A stretch of 7,676 nucleotides of DNA from a virus (taxonomy: Duplodnaviria > Heunggongvirae > Uroviricota > Caudoviricetes): positions 1-7,676 of the IMG/VR virus record IMGVR_UViG_2623620491_000013. The stretch is one strand, 5' to 3'. Position numbers and translations under genes: made by a program. The notes under the pieces were generated by a model. It saw only the letters and a list, made by a program, of their open reading frames with translations, did no database searches and had not been told where the DNA came from. Position 1 is the first letter of the stretch; each line of letters opens with the position of its first letter. Positions 1-7,676 of the stretch are shown in pieces.

Positions 1-261
1 AAGCGTGCGTATTGCCTGAAAACACAACCCGCTACGGGGGAGACTTACCCGAAATCTGATTTATTCAACAAAGCCCGTCAGTGTGTGACCCCTGGCGATT
101 ATGTTCTTTATGAAGGTCGGACATATATCGCCTCGGCAAACAATATTAAAAAGAGAAAACTTTATATTCGTAGCCTGACTACAAAAACATGCATTTCTGA
201 CTGCATGATTAAAGTCTTCCTCGGTCGTGATGGTTTACCTGTAAAGGCGGAGTCATGGTAA
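1..261 (+). CDS. 3' end of an upstream prophage ORF, truncated by the window edge; product unknown
   Basis: Frame 1 is open from position 1 to TAA at 259-261 (86 sense codons, only in-frame ATG near the end), so an ATG-anchored ORF track misses it. Its stop overlaps the next start (TAATG). In the Rac gene order this slot is a kil-type gene, but I cannot confirm that from sequence. Confidence 0.4.
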
Positions 262-431
262 TGACTAAGAAAATAAAATGTGCTTATCACCTTTGCAATA
301 AAGAAATTGAAGAAAGCAAAATCATTACAAGACCACTTCATTTCATGCGTGGAGTTATACCAACGACGGAAATGAAAAAATATTGTAGTGAAATCTGTGC
401 CGAAAAAGACCAGATGGCACACGAACTTTAA
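261..431 (+). CDS. Small Cys4 zinc-ribbon protein, 56 aa (ydaE-like by position and length)
   Basis: ATG at 261 overlaps the upstream stop (TAATG); GGAG at 249-252 with 8-nt spacing; stop TAA at 429-431. Four Cys arranged C-x4-C ... C-x3-C (KCAYHLC ... YCSEIC). Not in the supplied ORF track (below size cut-off); the antisense 86-aa track ORF 162-422 is the less plausible reading. Confidence 0.55.
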   Translation: MTKKIKCAYHLCNKEIEESKIITRPLHFMRGVIPTTEMKKYCSEICAEKDQMAHEL

Positions 432-505
432 TTAACTGACTATCCGAAACTGAATTTATGCCAGCAATGGCAGGGATTCGCTCAACCTTAATTAAGGAGA
501 AAAAC

Positions 506-880: not shown

Positions 881-3800
881 ATGAGCACCGATAAACAAGT
901 TTACCCACTGTATTACGAAGCAAAAAATGACAAAGTAAGAAAACGTCTCGGTATTAAAGGCGGTTTTTACTGGGCTGAAGCGAAAAAATTATCCATTGCC
1001 ATCTCCCGTGGTGCTGTTGCGATTGACGATGCTGGCTACGATGAAGATGACTTCAAAAAACCTGTTCGCGTCAATTTGCCCGTTGTTGATGACCTCCCGC
1101 CAGAAGGCGTATTTGATACGGAATTCTGCAACCGTTACGAAAAAGGCGGGGAAGATGGCATCACAATGGTATTTATCGCGCCCTCACCCTCTGCGCAGGG
1201 CAAACCAGCCAGCACTGACAACACCAATGTTAATGGCGAAGACATGACGGAGATTGAGGAGAATATGCTACTCCCGATTTCTGGCCAGGAGCTGCCCATT
1301 CGCTGGCTTGCTCAACACGGCAGCGAAAAACCGGTAACGCACGTTTCACGCGACGAACTCCAGGCATTACACATTGCACGGGCTGAGGAACTACCAGCTG
1401 TTACTGCCCTGGCTGTTTCCCACAAAACCAGCCTGCTCGATCCGCTGGAAATTCGCGATCTCCACAAACTGGTGCGTGATACTGACAGAGTTTTCCCTAA
1501 TCCAGGCAATTCAAGCCTGGGGCTGATGACTGCTTTTTTCGAAGCATACATGGACGCAGACTACACCGATCGCGGTCTGCTGACAAAAGAGTGGATGAAA
1601 GGAAATCGTGTTTCACGCATCACGCGCACGGCTTCCGGCGCTAATGCTGGCGGCGGGAACCTCACCGATCGCGGCGAAGGTTTCGTTCACGATCTGACGT
1701 CACTGGCGCGCGACGTAGCCACTGGCGTACTGGCCCGTTCAATGGACGTGGACATTTATAACCTTCATCCGGCACACGCTAAACGTGTCGAGGAAATTAT
1801 CGCTGAAAATAAACCGCCCTTTTCTGTTTTCCGCGACAAATTCATCACCATGCCTGGCGGGCTGGATTATTCCCGTGCCATCGTGGTTGCGTCCGTAAAA
1901 GAAGCACCAATTGGGATCGAGGTTATCCCCGCACACGTCACTGAATATCTGAACAAAGTACTGACTGAAACTGATCATGCCAACCCTGATCCAGAAATCG
2001 TGGATATTGCCTGCGGTCGTTCCTCTGCCCCGATGCCGCAGCGTGTAACAGAAGAAGAAAAACAGGATGATGAAGAAAAACTGCAACCATCTTGCGCAAT
2101 GGCAGATGAACAGGCAACGGCTGAAACAGTGGAACCGGATGCAACTGAACATCATCAGGACACGCAGCCGCTGGATGCTCAGTCACAGGTAAATTCTGTT
2201 GATGCGAAATATCAGAAACTGCGGGCAGAACTCCATGAAGCCCGGAAAAACATTCCGCCCAAAAATCCTGTCGATGCAGACAAATTACTGGCTGCCTCTC
2301 GCGGAGAATTTGTTGAAGGGATTAGCGACCCGAATGATCCGAAATGGGTTAAGGGGATCCAGACCCGCGACTCTGTGTATCAGAATCAGCCAGAAACGGA
2401 ACAGAACGACCCAAATACGCAACAAAACGAGCCAGAAACGAAACAGCCTGAGCCAGTAGTGCAACAACAGGAAACGGAGAAAGTTTGCACCGCCTGCGGT
2501 AAGGCTGGCGGCGGCAACTGTCCTGACTGTGGCGCGGTGATGGGCGACGCAACGTATCAGAAAACCTTTAATGAAGAAAATCAGAATGAATATCAGGAAA
2601 AAGGTCTGGAGGAAATGGAAGGTGCTGAACATCCGCACAAGGAGAACGCTGGCAGCAATCCGCATTGCGATTGCAGTGATGAAGCTGGTGAAGCGACAGC
2701 ACCTGTAGTAACTGAAATCATGTGGCCGTCATATTTCGAGCCTGGCCGCTATGAAAACCTCCCGAACGAGGTTTATCACTCCGCCAACGGAATAAGCAGC
2801 ACAATGCTGAAGGATGCCCGCATCAGCCTGATGTATTACCACGGACGGCACATTGCCGGAACTATTCTGGGCGAGGAAAGTGATGCATTGCTGCGTGGGC
2901 GGATTATTCACAGCTATGTTCTGGAAACGGATAAATTCGCTGATGAGTATGCCATTCCGGTACCGGTTCCTGAATATGTGGTTACTACTTCTAACGAACT
3001 GATCGCCATCATTAAAAAACACAATGCCAGTCTGCCAGCACTGATGACACCAGAGCAGATGAAAGAGTGGATCGAAAGCTACAACAGCACTCTTATACAG
3101 CCACTGTCGGTAAGTGCCGGGGCCGAAGAAACAGGCATCCTTTACGGTTCGCTTCCGGAGGAATTCCGGCGTATTCCTGAGGGGGAAAAACACACAGCAT
3201 CAGCAATGAAAGCCTGTATTAAAGAATACAACGCAAGCCTCCCTCCTCTGCTGAAAGCCAGTGGAACACGGGAGCAGCTCCTGGAGCAAATTGAAACTGT
3301 AGATCCAGAACTGGCAAAAAAAGAACGTGCTAAATCTTTGCCTTACAACATCAGTGGCACAAAAGAGCAATTAACCGAAATCGCCCGGAAAATTCGCCCG
3401 GAACTGGTGACACTGGAGGACTGGCAAAAACGCCAGCAAGAAGAAAACGCCGGGAAAATGTTTATCAGTCCGGATATGTATGAACAGGCAAAAAATATTC
3501 ACGCAGCACTGCAAAACAATACTGATGCAGCAAGGCTACTCAACCACCCGGATCGCAAATCTGAAATCAGCTATTTCGGGTTTGATGAAGAAACCGGGCT
3601 GGAAATCAGGGTCCGTCCTGATATCGAAATCCGGCTGCCATACGAAAGCATTTGCGCCGACGTGAAGTCAGTCAGCCTCGGTTATGTGCGACAGGAACGA
3701 CTGAAAGATCGCCTGCACCGTGAAATTATTGAGCGTGATTATCACCTCAGCGCAGCAATGTATTGCGATGTGGCAAACCTGGACAAATTTTTCTGGATCT

Positions 3801-4009
3801 TCGTCAACAAAGATGCTGGCTATCACTGGGTGGCCGTCGTGGAAGCCTCGCAGGAACTCCTGGAACTTGGTCGACAGGAATATCGCCGGACGCTACGACA
3901 GATAAACGAAGCTCTGGAGACAAACAACTGGCCAGCACCGATTACCGAAAGTTATACCGACGAATTAAACGACTTTGATCTTCGTCGTTTTGAAGCACTG
4001 AGCATCTGA
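881..4009 (+). CDS. recE: Exodeoxyribonuclease VIII (RecE), 1042 aa, with C-terminal PD-(D/E)xK nuclease domain
   Basis: ATG at 881 with GAGG at 867-870. Protein contains segments I recognise as RecE-like ([43 protein letters not shown]...). C-terminal nuclease motif P913-D914 ... D927-V-K929 ([19 protein letters not shown]). Followed by a coupled annealing-protein gene and ralR, the Rac recET-lar arrangement. Confidence 0.82.
2486..2533 (+). other. Cys4 zinc-ribbon/knuckle motif inside RecE (C536-x2-C539-x7-C547-x2-C550)
   Basis: [16 protein letters not shown] read from the recE translation; sits just downstream of a Q/E/P/T-rich low-complexity linker. Confidence 0.5.
3005..3410 (+). repeat. 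Three imperfect tandem coding repeats (about 35-40 aa each) within the RecE C-terminal region
   Basis: Protein copies [23 protein letters not shown] / [27 protein letters not shown] / [21 protein letters not shown]. Nucleotide copies attaaaaaacacaatgccagtctgccagcactg (about 3011) and attaaagaatacaacgcaagcctccctcctctg (about 3218). Confidence 0.55.
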
Positions 4010-4020
4010 GGAAGGACACA

Positions 4021-5073
4021 ATGAACGAATTAACTCAACAAGAAAATATTAACTCTAATGTTGCGGTTTTCAGCCCTCAGTCCCTGGCTGCAATTCAGAC
4101 ATTTTCCCAGGTAATGGCTTCCGGCATGGCTACTGTACCGGAACACCTCCGGGGAAATCCATCAGACTGCATGGCCATCACCATGCAGGCGATGCAGTGG
4201 CAAATGAACCCTTACGCAGTAGCTCAGAAAACTTTCGTTGTGAATGGTGTGCTCGGATATGAAGCGCAACTGGTTAATGCCGTAATCAGTACTCGTGGGC
4301 CGCTAACCGGGCGTATTGAATATGACTGGTTCGGGCCGTGGGAAAAAATTATCGGGAAATTTGAAATTAGGAAGAACGACAAGGGGAAAGAATATCGTGT
4401 ACCTGGCTGGAAGCTGGCCGATGAAAACGGGATCGGAGTTCGCGTCCAGGCAACACTACGCGGAGAGAGCAAGCCACGCGTACTGGAGTTACTTCTGGCG
4501 CAGGCCAGAACACGTAACTCAACGTTATGGGCCGATGATCCTCGCCAGCAGCTTGCCTATCTGGCACTGAAACGCTGGGCGCGCCTTTATTGCCCTGAAG
4601 TGATTCTTGGAGTGTACACCCGGGACGAACTGGACGAACCACAGGAAAAAATCATTAATCCGGTTCAGGAACATAAAAATACATCCGCCTGCCGTGCGGA
4701 ACGTGAAACAACAATTATTGAGCAGGATGCCGGGGAAAACTGGATCAGTGCTTTCCGTGAACGTATTGAGCAGGCACAAAGCACCGGAGAAACAACATCA
4801 CTTCGCCAGGAAGTGGAAGATCATAAAAATACACTTGGCGCTCTCTACACAGAACTTAAAGGAAAAGTGGTTCAGCGTCATCACCGTCTCAATGCTATTG
4901 CCCGTATTGAGACGATGATAAATGACCTGCCTTCATCAGGTGATCCAGAAGCAGAACAAAAATTTATTGCTCTGGAAAATACGCTGAATGCTGCACGACC
5001 ACATCTGGGAGAATTATATGAGGCGTATAAAACGACACTGACAGATATGAAACCAGAATATATCGGCTCCTGA
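4021..5073 (+). CDS. RecT/Red-beta-family single-strand annealing protein, 350 aa, with a long C-terminal helical extension
   Basis: ATG at 4021; RBS GAGGAAGG (4008-4015) overlaps the recE stop (TGA 4007-4009), indicating translational coupling. N-terminal half has a Bet/RecT-like pattern (GNPSDCMAI...QWQMNPYAVAQK...GVLGYEAQ; LWADDPRQQLAYLALKRWARLY). I did not recognise the canonical K-12 RecT sequence, so the family assignment is by motif and position. Confidence 0.7.
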   Translation: MNELTQQENINSNVAVFSPQSLAAIQTFSQVMASGMATVPEHLRGNPSDCMAITMQAMQWQMNPYAVAQKTFVVNGVLGYEAQLVNAVISTRGPLTGRIEYDWFGPWEKIIGKFEIRKNDKGKEYRVPGWKLADENGIGVRVQATLRGESKPRVLELLLAQARTRNSTLWADDPRQQLAYLALKRWARLYCPEVILGVYTRDELDEPQEKIINPVQEHKNTSACRAERETTIIEQDAGENWISAFRERIEQAQSTGETTSLRQEVEDHKNTLGALYTELKGKVVQRHHRLNAIARIETMINDLPSSGDPEAEQKFIALENTLNAARPHLGELYEAYKTTLTDMKPEYIGS

Positions 5074-5106: not shown

Positions 5107-5136
5107 ACAAAACTTTATTTTATGAGAGAAAAGACA

Positions 5137-5331
5137 ATGCGGTATGAAAAAGTCAAACCATGTCCGTTTTGTGGTTGTCCATCAGTAACGGTGAAAGCCA
5201 TTTCAGGATATTACCGCGCAAAGTGTAACGGATGCGAATCCCGAACCGGCTATAGTGGAAGTGAAAAAGAAGCACTCGAAAGATGGAATAAACGAACTAC
5301 TGGAAATAATAATGGAGGTGTTCATGTATAA
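5137..5331 (+). CDS. ralR: RalR (Lar): restriction-alleviation protein, reported to be the DNase toxin of a type I toxin-antitoxin pair in Rac
   Basis: 64 aa from ATG 5137 (purine-rich RBS GAGAGAAAAG at 5124-5133). Sequence MRYEKVKPCPFCGCPSVTVKAISGYYRAKCNGCESRTGYSGSEKEALERWNKR is recognised as Lar/RalR, with a C-x2-C ... C-x2-C zinc ribbon. The track ORF 5122-5331 is a 5-codon upstream extension. Confidence 0.85.
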   Translation: MRYEKVKPCPFCGCPSVTVKAISGYYRAKCNGCESRTGYSGSEKEALERWNKRTTGNNNGGVHV

Positions 5332-5512
5332 AATTACTACCACTATTGAAAAGGAAGGTGGCACTCCTACTAACTGGACAAGATATTCAAAATCTAAATT
5401 AACGAAATCAGAATGCGAAAAAATGCTCTCAGGGAAAAAAGAAGCAGGCGTTTCCAGAGAGCAGAAAGTAAAGCTGATAAATTTTAATTGCGAGAAACTT
5501 CTGTCCTCGTGA
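5324..5512 (+). CDS. YdaC-like small protein, 62 aa, overlapping the ralR 3' end
   Basis: ATG at 5324 with GGAGG at 5314-5318 (5-nt spacer); out-of-frame 8-nt overlap with the ralR stop (ATGTATAA). The track ORF 5255-5512 gives a longer N-terminus that lies inside ralR. Assigned by position in the Rac-type order. Confidence 0.5.
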   Translation: MYKITTTIEKEGGTPTNWTRYSKSKLTKSECEKMLSGKKEAGVSREQKVKLINFNCEKLLSS

Positions 5513-5596: not shown

Positions 5597-5618
5597 TCAT
5601 ATCGTAAGAGGTATGGCA

Positions 5619-5900
5619 ATGAATCTTGTGACACTCAAAACGTGGGGAAAACTCAGATATCCGGATAACCCACCATCAATATCAACGCTGAGACGATGGG
5701 CAAGGAATGGAAACATTTATCCTGCACCTGAACTACACGGGAGGAGTTACAGGGTGGTTCCGGAGGCTTTCTATATCAACCCAAATAAGGTTGATACCGA
5801 TATAACACACCATCAGCCTAATGGGCGACAAGGGAGAGACAGTCCGTTACTGGAGAAGTTAAAACATGCAGCGGAAAAAATACGATCCCAATTTGCCTAA
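5619..5900 (+). CDS. xis: Excisionase (Xis-like DNA-binding protein)
   Basis: Preferred start ATG 5619 (AAGAGG at 5606-5611, 7-nt spacer); the track start 5613 sits too close to the RBS. Overlaps the int start by 35 nt, as in lambda xis-int. Basic N-terminus with TLRRWARNG resembles the lambda Xis RRW region. Confidence 0.7.
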   Translation: MNLVTLKTWGKLRYPDNPPSISTLRRWARNGNIYPAPELHGRSYRVVPEAFYINPNKVDTDITHHQPNGRQGRDSPLLEKLKHAAEKIRSQFA

Positions 5901-6942
5901 AAACTTAACATATCGAAGGAGGGACAAAGCATATTACTGGCGCAACCCTCTGACGAAAGAAGAATTTACACTAGGTAAAATTTCAAGAAGAGATGCAGTA
6001 GCGCAGGCAATTGAAGCAAATCATTATATATACAAAAACTACTCTCCTGCTGCCTTAATTGAAAAGCTTAAAGGGTTCGACTCATTTACTATGGCAGACT
6101 GGATTGAACGTTACAAAACGATTCTTATAAGGAGAAAAGTGTCCAGAAATACTTATAAAATTCGGGTAAATCAACTGGAGACAATAAAAGAAAAATTGGG
6201 AGAGATTTTACTGACAGAAATAACCACTCGCCATATTGCCGAGTTTCTTGATTTGTGGATTGAAGGAGGGAAAAACACAATGGCAGGATCAATGCGTTCT
6301 GTGTTGTCTGATATGTTTCGTGAGGCCATTGTTGAAGGACGTATATCTCAAAATCCAGTAACGCCAACAAGAGCACCGAAAATAGTAGTTACAAGAGAAC
6401 GACTGAAACTAAAGACATACAACTGCATCAGGGAGGCAGCAGATCAACTTCCGGCATGGTTCCCATTAGCTATGGATTTAGCCCTTGTAACAGGACAACG
6501 TCGCGAAGACATAACGAATATGCGGTTTAGTGATATTTATGATGATCGTCTCCACATCAGGCAAATTAAGACAGGAATGATGATTGCTATCCCCCTGTCA
6601 CTCAGCCTTCCTGTCGCTGGTCTACGGCTTGGTACAGTAGTTGAACAGTGCCGCCTGGTAAGCCGGGGAGATTATCTAATCAGTGCCGGGATTAGAAAAA
6701 ACAGCCCTGACGGCAGCATTCACCCGGATGGCCTGACAAAAAAATTTGTCGCAGCCAGAAAATTAACAGGTATCCAGTTCAGTGAAAACCCACCAACTTT
6801 TCACGAGATCAGAAGTCTGGCTGGACGATTGTACAAAGAAACATGTGGAGAAGAATTTGCTCAGCGTCTACTTGGCCACACATCGGAGAAGACAACAAAA
6901 ATGTACCTTGATGAGAGAGAAAAAACGTACTTACTGCTCTGA
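5866..6942 (+). CDS. int: Lambda-family tyrosine integrase with N-terminal arm-binding domain
   Basis: 358 aa, colinear with lambda Int. N-terminus [22 protein letters not shown] matches lambda NLYIRNNGYYCYRDPRTGKEF; catalytic-region motifs [35 protein letters not shown] and [13 protein letters not shown] include the catalytic Tyr. GGAG at 5852-5855. Confidence 0.93.
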
Positions 6943-7334: not shown

Positions 7335-7676
7335 TTAACAGAGTTTTTCAGCTCGTTCTATAAACGGTGCCAGACTCATTTTTTCGCCGGGATTGTTAGG
7401 ATCATCAATCTGAATCACCGAAATGGGTTGGGCATTGGTCTTCCCACTGGCAACTTCCTTTTGTGCGATATCGTTTAAAGGATACTGCACGAGGGTACTC
7501 GGATTAATAACATACAAAGCATTACCCGGTCGGCAAGTCAGCATCACCTCTTCGCGATTAAACGCCCATTTGTCTTTACCCACTTCAAAACGACTGACGG
7601 TAATCACCTGCGGTGCAGCCAGCGCCGCTGCAGAACTGGTGAGTAACAGAAACGCCAGAATACTTTTTTTCATCAT
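7335..7676 (-). CDS. yebY: YebY (DUF2511-type secreted protein) with Sec signal peptide
   Basis: 113 aa ORF; N-terminus [23 protein letters not shown] is a typical signal peptide with an AxA cleavage site. Length and position next to sdsR match yebY of E. coli. The start codon is at the window edge, so start choice (7676 or 7673) and RBS cannot be checked. Confidence 0.7.

What the first reader, a model, noticed from the sequence alone, without database searches (positions are those of the whole stretch)
2380..2700. RecE central linker: Q/E/P/T-rich nucleotide repeats followed by a Cys4 zinc ribbon and a His/Cys cluster
Nt 2380-2480 contain imperfect tandem units (GCCAGAAACG[G/A]AACAG...) encoding [25 protein letters not shown], a likely flexible linker prone to length variation. 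This is followed by C-x2-C-x7-C-x2-C (2486-2533) and [19 protein letters not shown] metal-binding module in the poorly understood N-terminal/central part of RecE would be a functional lead.
Basis: seen in the sequence. Interest (0 to 1): 0.45.

Follow-up and report, generated by a model that had tools for sequence, protein, structure and literature searches.

The report
Portable Cys4 mini-domain in RecE linker
The prophage recombination nuclease RecE carries, inside a floppy repeat-containing linker, a small strongly conserved four-cysteine (probably zinc-binding) module that is also found on unrelated phage DNA enzymes, so it looks like a portable accessory module, perhaps a docking tag, rather than part of the nuclease itself.

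Summary
recE (881-4009, 1042 aa) contains three imperfect 21-nt units (2381-2443), C-x2-C-x7-C-x2-C (Cys codons 2486-2530) and [18 protein letters not shown] (2630-2683).

The linker changes length among alleles in 7-aa steps. The four Cys are invariant in 55 distinct DNA alleles despite TGC/TGT changes, and K-12 RecE has them (C517/520/528/531).

The conserved unit is about 28 aa: CxxCGxxGGGxCPDCG[AP]VMGDATYxx[MT]F. The His/Cys cluster is not conserved (C596 is Cys in 3 of 55 alleles).

The module is not RecE-specific:
- It joins the RecE scaffold to three different nuclease domains, or to none.
- It ends the Dam methylases of P2-like phages.
- It occurs in small early proteins of Mu-like phages.
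- It is nearly confined to Enterobacterales.

Functional Gifsy-1-type RecE lacks it, and the K-12 nuclease domain (564-866) works without it.

No Pfam, NCBIfam, PHROG or PDB match covers it. AlphaFold2 confidence is low (pLDDT about 50-60).

Best reading: a metal-stabilised, portable accessory mini-domain on a flexible tether, probably a protein-docking tag. Metal binding and the partner are inferred, not shown.

Interest is moderate. It is an uncurated member of the zinc-knuckle class.

The parts
881..4009 (+). recE (exodeoxyribonuclease VIII), 1042 aa, chimeric allele
   Evidence: ORF. NF007259 equivalog 1569 bits. PF06630 covers aa 52-189 and PF12684 covers aa 855-1019. A 99.1% identical recE is annotated in E. 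coli LWY24.
2270..2371 (+). Conserved block 1 (aa 464-497, [34 protein letters not shown]), part of the RecE scaffold and more widely conserved than the Cys4 module
   Evidence: Invariant columns. Also present in Gifsy-1 and Klebsiella-phage RecE, which lack the Cys4 module. AlphaFold2 pLDDT is about 70-79 here.
2372..2485 (+). Q/E/P/T/N-rich acidic linker (aa 498-535) containing three imperfect 21-nt (7-aa) tandem units at 2381-2443
   Evidence: Net charge is -6. AlphaFold2 pLDDT is 36-39. Allelic lengths are 19/26/33-34/40-41 aa and 32/38-39/45 aa (measured from an anchor two residues further downstream).
2486..2530 (+). Cys4 double knuckle, C536-T-A-C539-G-K-A-G-G-G-N-C547-P-D-C550 (CxxCG ... 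CPxCG)
   Evidence: All four Cys are invariant in 55 distinct DNA alleles, three of them with TGC/TGT synonymous variation. K-12 RecE has them at C517/520/528/531.
2531..2569 (+). Conserved continuation of the module, [13 protein letters not shown] (aa 551-563), as invariant as the Cys
   Evidence: AlphaFold2 places a helix from D556 onward (model residues 29-42, pLDDT about 60).
2570..2701 (+). Acidic tail (aa 564-607, net charge -9) that includes the poorly conserved [18 protein letters not shown] (2630-2683). The recombination breakpoint to the nuclease domain lies at its end.
   Evidence: Identity to K-12 RecE collapses after about aa 606. Different C-terminal domains begin here in relatives.
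2702..4006 (+). Gifsy/Klebsiella-type PD-(D/E)XK nuclease domain with a large insertion; putative catalytic D914 and D927-x-K929
   Evidence: PF12684. Window aa 454-1042, which includes this domain, is 45% identical to Gifsy-1 RecE; the whole protein is 37% identical to Klebsiella-phage RecE. The motifs RVRPD (3608-3622) and ADVKS (3656-3670) align with K-12 RPD / MDVK.
4021..5073 (+). recT partner gene (350 aa), Gifsy/Klebsiella type, co-inherited with the nuclease domain
   Evidence: PF03837. It is 48-53% identical to Gifsy-1 and Klebsiella-phage RecT and has no significant BLAST match to K-12 RecT.

Best explanation
The segment is an inter-domain tether of RecE with three parts. (1) A disordered, acidic Q/E/P/T/N linker built from 7-aa (21-nt) tandem units. 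Their copy number drifts by replication slippage or unequal recombination, so this part acts as a spacer of variable length. (2) An autonomous mini-domain of about 28 aa, CxxCGxxGGGxCPDCG[AP]VMGDATYxx[MT]F. Its four Cys most likely chelate one metal ion, probably Zn2+, and the two knuckles hold the following conserved GDATYxxMF segment in a fixed shape. (3) A poorly conserved acidic tail, where recombination has joined the scaffold to alternative nuclease domains. The mini-domain is not part of the nuclease or annealing machinery. It is a portable accessory module that temperate phages of Enterobacterales append to early DNA-transaction proteins. Its most likely job is to dock those proteins to a common partner protein, host or phage. 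In RecE this would contribute to whatever the N-terminal 600 residues add beyond core exonuclease activity. Shown here: the conservation, the portability, and the absence of the module from some RecE orthologues; that it is dispensable for function rests on cited literature. Inferred: metal binding, the identity of the metal, and the docking function.
For: Conservation. The four Cys are invariant in 55 distinct DNA alleles, three of them with synonymous TGC/TGT changes, and many neighbouring residues (for example G85, D91, G93, V95, T100, T104) are likewise fixed in protein while their codons vary. That allele set was collected with a pattern requiring the Cys; an anchor that does not require them finds only rare Cys3 substitutions. 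Knuckle signatures are CxxCG and CPxCG. Rearranged variants keep at least four possible ligands: C-x6-C-x2-C-x2-C in P0194, P0235 and L106; C-x7-C-x2-C-x2-C in L108; C-x-H-x4-C-x2-C in P0221. Portability. Of 80 IMG/VR loci, 68 are DnaQ-like (PF16473; 66 by motif plus two whose exonuclease motif carries a substitution), 8 are window-type PD-(D/E)XK and 4 are K-12-type. A nuclease-less tail type also exists. The module ends Dam methylases of P2-like phages (L002 in Peduoviridae, P0187 with PF02086, and loci from eight enterobacterial genera). It occurs in 60-79 aa proteins of the Mu-like early region, near Kil, DUF3164 and GemA, and in other small proteins. These small proteins match RecE models only over the module (NF007259 positions about 521-567, E 1e-8 to 1e-10; PHROG exonuclease families). 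Not a DNA binder. The module has net charge -2 and no conserved basic residue, and its flanks carry -6 and -9. Host range. Only 23 loci were found in 185,579 species genomes, nearly all Enterobacterales, whereas 4543 of 5426 complete E. coli genomes carry it, at up to 9 places each. Accessory status. Gifsy-1 and Klebsiella-phage RecE lack it, and Gifsy recET is functional. K-12 residues 564-866 suffice genetically, while full-length RecE improves linear-linear recombination and the N-terminal function is called unknown. Tether. Linker pLDDT is 36-39, and allele lengths differ by 7 aa.
Against: There is no direct evidence that metal is bound. AlphaFold2 gives only pLDDT about 50 (in context) and about 60 (isolated, 20-sequence alignment). 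Foldseek against the PDB gives no match, and a profile search of PDB sequences gives nothing below E = 0.1. The 7-residue Gly-rich spacer is unusually short for a zinc ribbon. No partner is identified, and the docking role rests on negative evidence (no basic residues) plus the pattern of portability. Rare alleles carry Cys3 changed to Tyr or Ser (P0090, P0092, P0093), though they may simply be decaying cryptic prophages. The CxxCxxC variant class resembles Fe-S ligand spacing, so the metal could differ.
Confidence: 0.5

Rival explanations
1. The Cys4 unit is a DNA-binding zinc finger that helps RecE, and Dam, engage DNA ends or single-stranded DNA. That would explain why full-length RecE is better at joining two linear molecules.
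For: All the large carriers are DNA enzymes: RecE, a DnaQ-like exonuclease and Dam. Short-spaced Cys4 fingers occur in DNA repair proteins; RadA chains appear among the weak PDB hits. [quoted passage not shown]
Against: The module has no conserved Lys or Arg, its net charge is -2, and it sits between segments of charge -6 and -9. The RadA similarity is not significant (E = 1.9). The module also occurs alone in 60-190 aa proteins that have no recognisable DNA-binding domain.
Confidence: 0.12
2. The four Cys bind iron, either a rubredoxin-type Fe centre or an Fe-S cluster, and make the module a redox- or iron-sensing switch rather than a structural zinc site.
For: CxxCG and CPxCG are the rubredoxin knuckle signatures, and rubredoxins appear among the weak PDB hits. 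The variant class C-x6-C-x2-C-x2-C (P0194, P0235, L106) contains the CxxCxxC spacing typical of Fe-S ligands.
Against: The 7-residue spacer is far shorter than in rubredoxins, and no rubredoxin or ferredoxin model is matched significantly. Most members have the plain CxxC...CxxC arrangement commonly seen in structural zinc sites (general knowledge). Nothing in the gene neighbourhoods points to redox chemistry.
Confidence: 0.08
3. The module is only a structural staple, or a selfish or neutral passenger, inside a recombination-prone linker. It spreads because the flanking low-complexity DNA promotes domain shuffling, and it has no binding function of its own.
For: It sits exactly at the breakpoints where alternative C-terminal domains are joined. 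Deletions between short direct repeats occur in and around it (P0139 and P0133). It is dispensable in Gifsy-type RecE.
Against: Synonymous variation with invariant protein sequence over about 28 residues indicates purifying selection on the peptide, including non-ligand residues. It is retained in unrelated proteins from three phage lineages at only 45-60% identity to the window's module, and the DNA of distant carriers is not similar enough for recent transfer to explain this. Rearranged variants keep the number of ligands.
Confidence: 0.15
4. One reading: the Cys4 ribbon and the downstream HPH...PHCDC cluster together form a larger, two-site metal-binding module.
For: The window allele does carry H584, H586, H595, C596 and C598 close together. 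EHPH is kept in 53-54 of 55 E. coli-type alleles.
Against: C596 is Cys in 3 of 55 alleles. DnaQ-type proteins have no Cys in this stretch. More distant module carriers replace HPH entirely or end before it. The stretch is predicted as disordered.
Confidence: 0.04

Closest known systems
E. coli K-12 Rac prophage RecE (exonuclease VIII, b1350, 866 aa)
   Same: The N-terminal and central 600 residues are homologous (69% identity overall, about 90% over aa 111-606). This includes block 1, the repeat linker, all four Cys (C517/520/528/531) and the [13 protein letters not shown] segment. Gene order is the same Rac-like series ydaE-racC-recE-recT-lar-xis-int.
   Different: K-12 has two rather than three 7-aa units, and PHRDC instead of PHCDC. 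Its PD-(D/E)XK domain is shorter and of a different type, with only a 29% match over 133 aa. Its RecT is unrelated in sequence.
Gifsy-1 (Salmonella) and Klebsiella phage ST846-OXA48phi9.2 RecE/RecT
   Same: They share the nuclease domain type with the large insertion, the RecT type, and block 1.
   Different: There is no Cys anywhere between block 1 and the nuclease domain, so the Cys4 module is absent and an unrelated acidic linker takes its place.
Lambdoid 'exonuclease' proteins with a C-terminal DnaQ-like 3'-5' exonuclease (PF16473), described as DnaQ-like Rec-module nucleases in PMC12315714
   Same: They share the central scaffold (NF007259 positions 271-602), the linker repeats, the Cys4 module and the acidic tail.
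   Different: The C-terminal catalytic domain is a DnaQ-like 3'-5' exonuclease, not PD-(D/E)XK. This is the most common carrier: 68 of 80 IMG/VR loci.
Classical zinc ribbons and rubredoxin-type zinc knuckles (for example TFIIB-type PF08271, double zinc ribbon PF12773, rubredoxin)
   Same: Two CxxC knuckles with the CxxCG / CPxCG signature, and a small size.
   Different: The spacer is only 7 Gly-rich residues, against about 10-30. No model reaches threshold (E 0.07-0.1, far below gathering scores), and PDB profile hits are E >= 0.1. A conserved non-ligand segment GxVMGDATYxxMF defines this family.
D12-class Dam methyltransferases of P2-like (Peduoviridae) prophages
   Same: They carry the same mini-domain, for example [23 protein letters not shown] in phiT5282H, at 79% identity over 24 aa to the window.
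   Different: The module is at the extreme C-terminus of a methyltransferase and is followed by a short acidic tail ending in Phe. There is no RecE scaffold.

Membership tests
RecE / exodeoxyribonuclease VIII (NCBIfam NF007259 equivalog) | The whole-protein score is above the curated equivalog cut-off. | tested here: met
   1569.3 bits against a cut-off of 1269, covering aa 1-1041.
RecE / exodeoxyribonuclease VIII | N-terminal Exonuc_VIII region (PF06630) together with a C-terminal PD-(D/E)XK nuclease domain carrying the PD...(D/E)xK motif. | tested here: met
   PF06630 at E = 5.6e-37 and PF12684 at E = 4.9e-13. RVRPD914 and D927-V-K929 align with K-12 RPD / DVK.
RecE / exodeoxyribonuclease VIII | An adjacent downstream recT partner gene in a Rac-like early-left operon. 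| tested here: met
   A PF03837 RecT gene lies at 4021-5073, followed by lar, xis and int. The K-12 order is the same.
RecE / exodeoxyribonuclease VIII | 5'-3' double-stranded DNA exonuclease activity. | not testable with these tools
   This needs a biochemical assay.
Zinc ribbon (Pfam zinc-ribbon clan, e.g. PF08271, PF12773, PF13240) | Two CxxC knuckles. | tested here: met
   C536-x2-C539 and C547-x2-C550, conserved across alleles.
Zinc ribbon (Pfam zinc-ribbon clan) | A significant match to a curated zinc-ribbon model. | tested here: not met
   No hit for the window protein. In relatives the best matches are PF08271 at E = 0.075-0.1 and PF12773 at E = 0.072, far below gathering scores. The NF049953 ribbon model scores 16 bits against a cut-off of 130.
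Zinc ribbon (Pfam zinc-ribbon clan) | Two beta-hairpins forming a three-stranded sheet around the metal. | tested here: inconclusive
   AlphaFold2 gives pLDDT about 50-60, with only a single beta-bridge and a helix. Foldseek against the PDB gives 0 hits.
Zinc ribbon (Pfam zinc-ribbon clan) | Stoichiometric Zn2+ binding. | not testable with these tools
   This needs metal analysis of purified protein.
Rubredoxin-like fold | CxxCG ... CPxCG knuckles separated by a core of about 25-30 residues containing aromatic residues. | tested here: not met
   The knuckle signatures are present but the spacer is 7 residues. Rubredoxin chains match only the CPxCG knuckle, at E = 1.1-1.5.
RadA/Sms N-terminal C4 zinc finger | Significant sequence similarity to the RadA zinc finger. 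| tested here: not met
   E = 1.9, 11 bits.
Coding variable-number tandem repeat | Head-to-tail units whose copy number differs among alleles in whole units. | tested here: met
   A 21-nt period. Linker lengths are 19/26/33-34/40-41 aa and 32/38-39/45 aa. The alignment shows gaps of whole units.

The most novel reading that the evidence does not exclude
The 28-aa Cys4 + GDATYxxMF module is a shared recruitment tag. Lambdoid, P2-like and Mu-like temperate phages of Enterobacterales would use it to dock their early DNA enzymes (RecE-scaffold nucleases, Dam methylase, small Mu-like early proteins) onto one host hub protein, such as a replisome-, SSB- or repair-associated factor. In RecE it would be the element of the 'unknown-function' N-terminal region responsible for the extra activity of full-length RecE in linear-linear recombination.
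Probability: 0.2. Interest if true: 0.65.

Novelty: new member of a known kind. Interest (0 to 1): 0.4.

Why it matters
RecE/RecT is a workhorse of recombineering. Full-length RecE is used for direct cloning because it greatly improves linear-linear recombination, yet reviews from 2023 still call the N-terminal 560-600 residues 'of unknown function' (PMC11611040, PMC11610958).

A discrete, strongly selected mini-domain inside that region gives a small, mutable target: four Cys, plus D549, M554, D556 and Y559. It is easy to test in existing LLHR assays.

The module also turns up on Dam methylases and on Mu-like early proteins, and it is almost confined to Enterobacterales. If a common partner exists, it would reveal a host hub that several temperate phage lineages exploit. 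It might also explain part of the host specificity of recombineering systems.

The module DNA is present in 84% of complete E. coli genomes, often in several copies, so it is one of the commonest uncurated peptide modules in that species' prophage pool.

Tried and rejected
- AlphaFold2 on aa 421-640 with a 69-sequence, shallow, E. coli-only alignment. The ribbon came out at pLDDT about 50. Only the helices at 434-455 and 466-473 (plus a short one at 487-490) were moderately confident, pLDDT about 70-79.
- AlphaFold2 on the 45-aa module with 20 more diverse sequences. Mean pLDDT was 60, too low to trust the geometry. The Foldseek search of the PDB with that model returned nothing.
- A profile search of PDB sequences gave only knuckle-level matches at E >= 0.1: a designed zinc finger, 9qtr_i, LysW, TFIIB, rubredoxin and RadA. 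All were rejected as not significant.
- Pfam, NCBIfam and PHROG scans for a dedicated family found none. The small proteins hit only the module part of the exonuclease models.
- The profile search of 1.84 billion representatives also returned large proteins with many 'AGWTPEVxxVTGDATYxATF' repeats. I rejected these as convergent similarity to the GDATY strand only, because they have no Cys.
- I checked by eye whether 'YQEMF/YQETF' fits the beta-clamp-binding consensus (QL[SD]LF, or QADMF of Pol III alpha, both from my own knowledge). It is one residue short, so I make no claim.
- I initially recalled that K-12 RecE lacks the first Cys. The K-12 sequence shows this was wrong.
- Fu et al. 2012 (the truncation series of RecE) is not held in the library. 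I therefore could not check whether truncations on either side of residues 517-531 differ in LLHR.
- The first literature search matched 'receptor' instead of RecE and was useless. Searches for RecE or exonuclease VIII together with zinc found no paper describing this site.
Full report
**1. What the window is**

The window is the left arm of a Rac-like prophage:
- ydaE-like gene, 255-431
- racC-like gene, 458-781
- recE, 881-4009, 1042 aa
- recT, 4021-5073
- a Lar-type restriction-alleviation gene, 5122-5331
- a DUF1187 gene, 5255-5512
- xis, 5613-5900
- int, 5866-6942
- a convergent ORF at the right end (7335-7676, minus strand), presumably chromosomal

K-12 Rac has the same order.

The recE product passes the NCBIfam exodeoxyribonuclease VIII equivalog cut-off, 1569 bits against 1269. 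A 99.1% identical recE is annotated in E. coli LWY24. 120 of 5426 complete E. coli genomes carry an allele covering at least 80% of it.

**2. Check of the observation**

- GCCAGAAACGRAACAG occurs twice (2389, 2431), with none expected by chance.
- Tandem Repeats Finder reports a 21-nt period, 2.7 copies, score 65.
- Three in-register units at 2381-2443 encode QNQPETE / QNDPNTQ / QNEPETK.
- C536, C539, C547 and C550 are encoded at 2486-2530.
- [18 protein letters not shown] is aa 584-601, nt 2630-2683.

**3. The linker**

The stretch aa 498-535 is 24% Gln, 18% Glu and 13% Pro, with net charge -6. AlphaFold2 gives it pLDDT 36-39.

Among protein clusters from public E. coli and Shigella sequences, the distance from the conserved VYQ to the first Cys is 19, 26, 33-34 or 40-41 residues. 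In 80 IMG/VR prophage loci the corresponding distances, measured from an anchor two residues further downstream, are 32, 38-39 or 45. These are steps of one 7-aa unit, and the alignment shows whole-unit gaps. K-12 RecE has two units and the window has three.

So the prediction of 'a flexible linker prone to length variation' holds.

**4. The Cys4 motif is conserved, and the conserved unit is larger than the Cys**

K-12 RecE has all four Cys, at C517/520/528/531.

I codon-aligned 55 distinct DNA alleles, taken from the window, K-12, IMG/VR loci and species genomes.
- All four Cys are invariant, three of them while their codons alternate between TGC and TGT.
- The neighbouring residues G-x2[21 protein letters not shown] are almost all fixed, with synonymous variation (for example Gly GGC 28 / GGT 27, Asp GAT 42 / GAC 13).

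That is the signature of purifying selection on a peptide of about 28 residues.

That allele set was collected with a pattern requiring the Cys. An anchor that does not require them found only rare exceptions, with Cys3 changed to Tyr or Ser in three small clusters. The remaining exceptions were frameshifted or truncated fragments.

**5. The His/Cys cluster is not conserved**

- C596 is Cys in 3 of 55 alleles (His 41, Arg 10).
- DnaQ-type relatives read QHHxSDxE, with no Cys.
- More distant relatives replace EHPH by GLPN, ENPR, DIAL or EYIQ.

**6. The module is not specific to RecE**

*(a) Within the RecE scaffold.* The same central segment (block 1, linker, module, acidic tail) is joined to at least four different C-termini:
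- the K-12-type PD-(D/E)XK domain
- the window/Gifsy-type PD-(D/E)XK domain (PF12684 with a large insertion)
- a DnaQ-like 3'-5' exonuclease (PF16473)
- a short tail with no nuclease

Of 80 IMG/VR loci, 68 are DnaQ-type (66 by motif plus two whose exonuclease motif carries a substitution), 8 are window-type and 4 are K-12-type. This fits the recent description of RecE, DnaQ-like and nuclease-less 'RecE-2' proteins in lambdoid Rec modules (PMC12315714).

*(b) Outside the RecE scaffold.* A profile search of 1.84 billion representative proteins, a tblastn search of phage genomes and pattern scans found the same motif in three other settings:
- At the extreme C-terminus of D12-class Dam methylases of P2-like phages and prophages. 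Examples are phiT5282H (Peduoviridae), P0187 (PF02086), and prophages of Citrobacter, Trabulsiella, Yokenella, Hafnia, Salmonella, Enterobacter, Kosakonia and Klebsiella.
- In 60-79 aa proteins of the early region of Mu-like phages, next to Kil, DUF3164 and GemA.
- In several other small proteins of 92-335 aa.

These proteins match RecE models only over the module.

*(c) Rearranged variants keep four potential ligands.* Examples are C-x6-C-x2-C-x2-C, C-x7-C-x2-C-x2-C and C-x-H-x4-C-x2-C. This argues for metal ligation rather than a chance Cys pattern.

*(d) Taxonomic range.* In one genome per species for 185,579 species, only 23 loci carry the motif, nearly all Enterobacterales. The few others are an Oceanisphaera genome, a weak Rhodoferax MAG hit, and three MAGs (Veillonella, Roseburia, an unclassified proteobacterium) whose hits are E. 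coli-type exonuclease genes, two of them K-12-type recE; I suspect bin contamination but did not check. By contrast, 4543 of 5426 complete E. coli genomes carry the module DNA, at up to nine places per genome.

**7. The module is dispensable for core RecE function**

Gifsy-1 RecE (962 aa) and a Klebsiella-phage RecE (1033 aa) share block 1 and the window's nuclease type. Gifsy-1 RecE is 45% identical over window aa 454-1042, and the Klebsiella-phage protein is 37% identical over the whole length. Neither has a single Cys between block 1 and the nuclease domain.

Gifsy recET orthologues suppress recombination defects when activated (PMC3121763). For K-12, residues 564-866 substitute genetically for the full protein, while full-length RecE improves linear-linear recombination. 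Two 2023 reviews call the N-terminal function unknown or unclear (PMC11611040; PMC11610958). Neither mentions zinc, and searches for RecE or exonuclease VIII together with zinc found no description of this site.

**8. Structure**

- No Pfam, NCBIfam or PHROG family covers the module.
- No PDB sequence matches below E = 0.1.
- AlphaFold2 is unconfident: pLDDT about 50 in context and 60 in isolation. The isolated model suggests a knuckle followed by a helix over [14 protein letters not shown].
- Foldseek finds nothing.

The CxxCG / CPxCG signatures are rubredoxin-like knuckles, but the 7-residue Gly-rich spacer is much shorter than in rubredoxins or classical zinc ribbons. I therefore call it a Cys4 double-knuckle mini-domain. 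I do not claim membership of any curated zinc-ribbon family.

**9. Most likely mechanism**

*Shown:*
- strong selection on about 28 residues
- at least four ligands retained in all variants
- portability across unrelated early DNA enzymes of three temperate-phage lineages
- a narrow host clade
- an acidic, disordered, length-variable context
- absence from some RecE orthologues (that those orthologues are functional, and that the K-12 nuclease domain suffices, comes from the cited literature)

*Inferred:*
- The Cys bind one metal ion, probably Zn.
- The metal rigidifies the following GDATYxxMF segment.
- The unit works as a tethered docking module for a common partner protein.

The absence of any conserved basic residue, and a net charge of -2 within flanks of -6 and -9, argue against DNA binding.

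Rivals retained at lower probability:
- a DNA-binding finger
- an iron or Fe-S site
- a functionless structural staple or passenger in a recombination-prone linker

**10. Chimerism of this allele**

The window's RecE is K-12-like up to about aa 606. From there, through recT, it is Gifsy/Klebsiella-like. Its RecT has no significant similarity to K-12 RecT but is 48-53% identical to Gifsy-1 and Klebsiella-phage RecT.

The breakpoint lies at the end of the acidic tail that follows the module. The nuclease domain and its annealase therefore travel together, and the scaffold with the module travels separately.

**11. Verdict**

- Novelty: an uncurated member of the zinc-knuckle/ribbon class, with an unusual distribution.
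- Interest is moderate. It offers a cheap, well-defined handle on the long-standing question of what the RecE N-terminal region does, but it has no demonstrated function yet.

Noticed in passing
window 2702-5073: This recE allele is a chimera. It is K-12-like to about aa 606. After that the nuclease domain and the whole recT are Gifsy/Klebsiella-type. RecT is 48-53% identical to those and has no significant match to K-12 RecT. The nuclease domain and its annealase seem to be exchanged as one unit.
   Followed up: partly
L002 1646-2617; L087, L091, L093, L100-L103, L105, L107, L110-L113, L121 (module ORFs): In Dam methylases of P2-like phages the Cys4 module is followed by a short C-terminal tail. 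In most it is acidic and ends in Phe (...TFDDLEAF*...AFDGSEGF*...ALDAEPF*...ETQEPF*), which resembles the acidic C-terminal tip of E. coli SSB (DFDDDIPF, from my own knowledge). A few end differently. RecE continues with TFDEE after the module. A possible SSB-tail mimic; untested.
   Followed up: no
window 1646-1660 and 2504-2518: Two near-identical 15-nt stretches, GCTGGCGGCGG(G/C)AAC, both encode AGGGN. One lies at aa 256-260 and the other inside the Cys4 loop. Database protein P0139 (756 aa) reads ...[14 protein letters not shown]..., which is an in-frame deletion of about 286 aa between them that removes the first knuckle.
   Followed up: partly
P0133 (703 aa; K-12-type recE): This protein follows K-12 RecE up to ...CNACGQTGGD, inside the Cys4 loop. 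It then continues as ...ALGHAYLLPFGNKNEKSGKKNVQLI, which is K-12 RecT sequence. It looks like a deletion fusing recE to recT in frame.
   Followed up: no
P0090, P0232, P0092, P0093: Rare alleles carry the third Cys changed to Tyr (GGGNYPDCG) or Ser (GGGNSPDCG). They come from small clusters and may be decaying cryptic prophages.
   Followed up: partly
window 255-431 and 5122-5331: Two further small Cys-rich proteins flank the rec genes. One is a YdaE-family protein (NF041288; K-12 ydaE is annotated 'zinc-binding protein'). The other is a Lar-type restriction-alleviation protein (PF14354) with a CPFCG...CNGC pattern. Its ORF overlaps the DUF1187 ORF (5255-5512) by 77 nt.
   Followed up: no
P0147, P0160, P0163, P0179, P0184, P0185, P0196, P0225: Very large proteins (up to 3297 aa) contain many repeats of AGWTPEVxxVTGDATYxATF. 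They hit the module profile at E down to 4e-14 purely through the GDATY segment and have no Cys. This is a trap for profile searches with this module.
   Followed up: partly
P0194, P0197, P0235, L106 4653-5108, L108 4485-5075: A variant class of the module has its Cys arranged C-x6/7-C-x2-C-x2-C (for example CKTMGPTCRGCPDCG). The CxxCxxC part resembles Fe-S cluster ligand spacing, so the bound metal may not be the same in all members.
   Followed up: no
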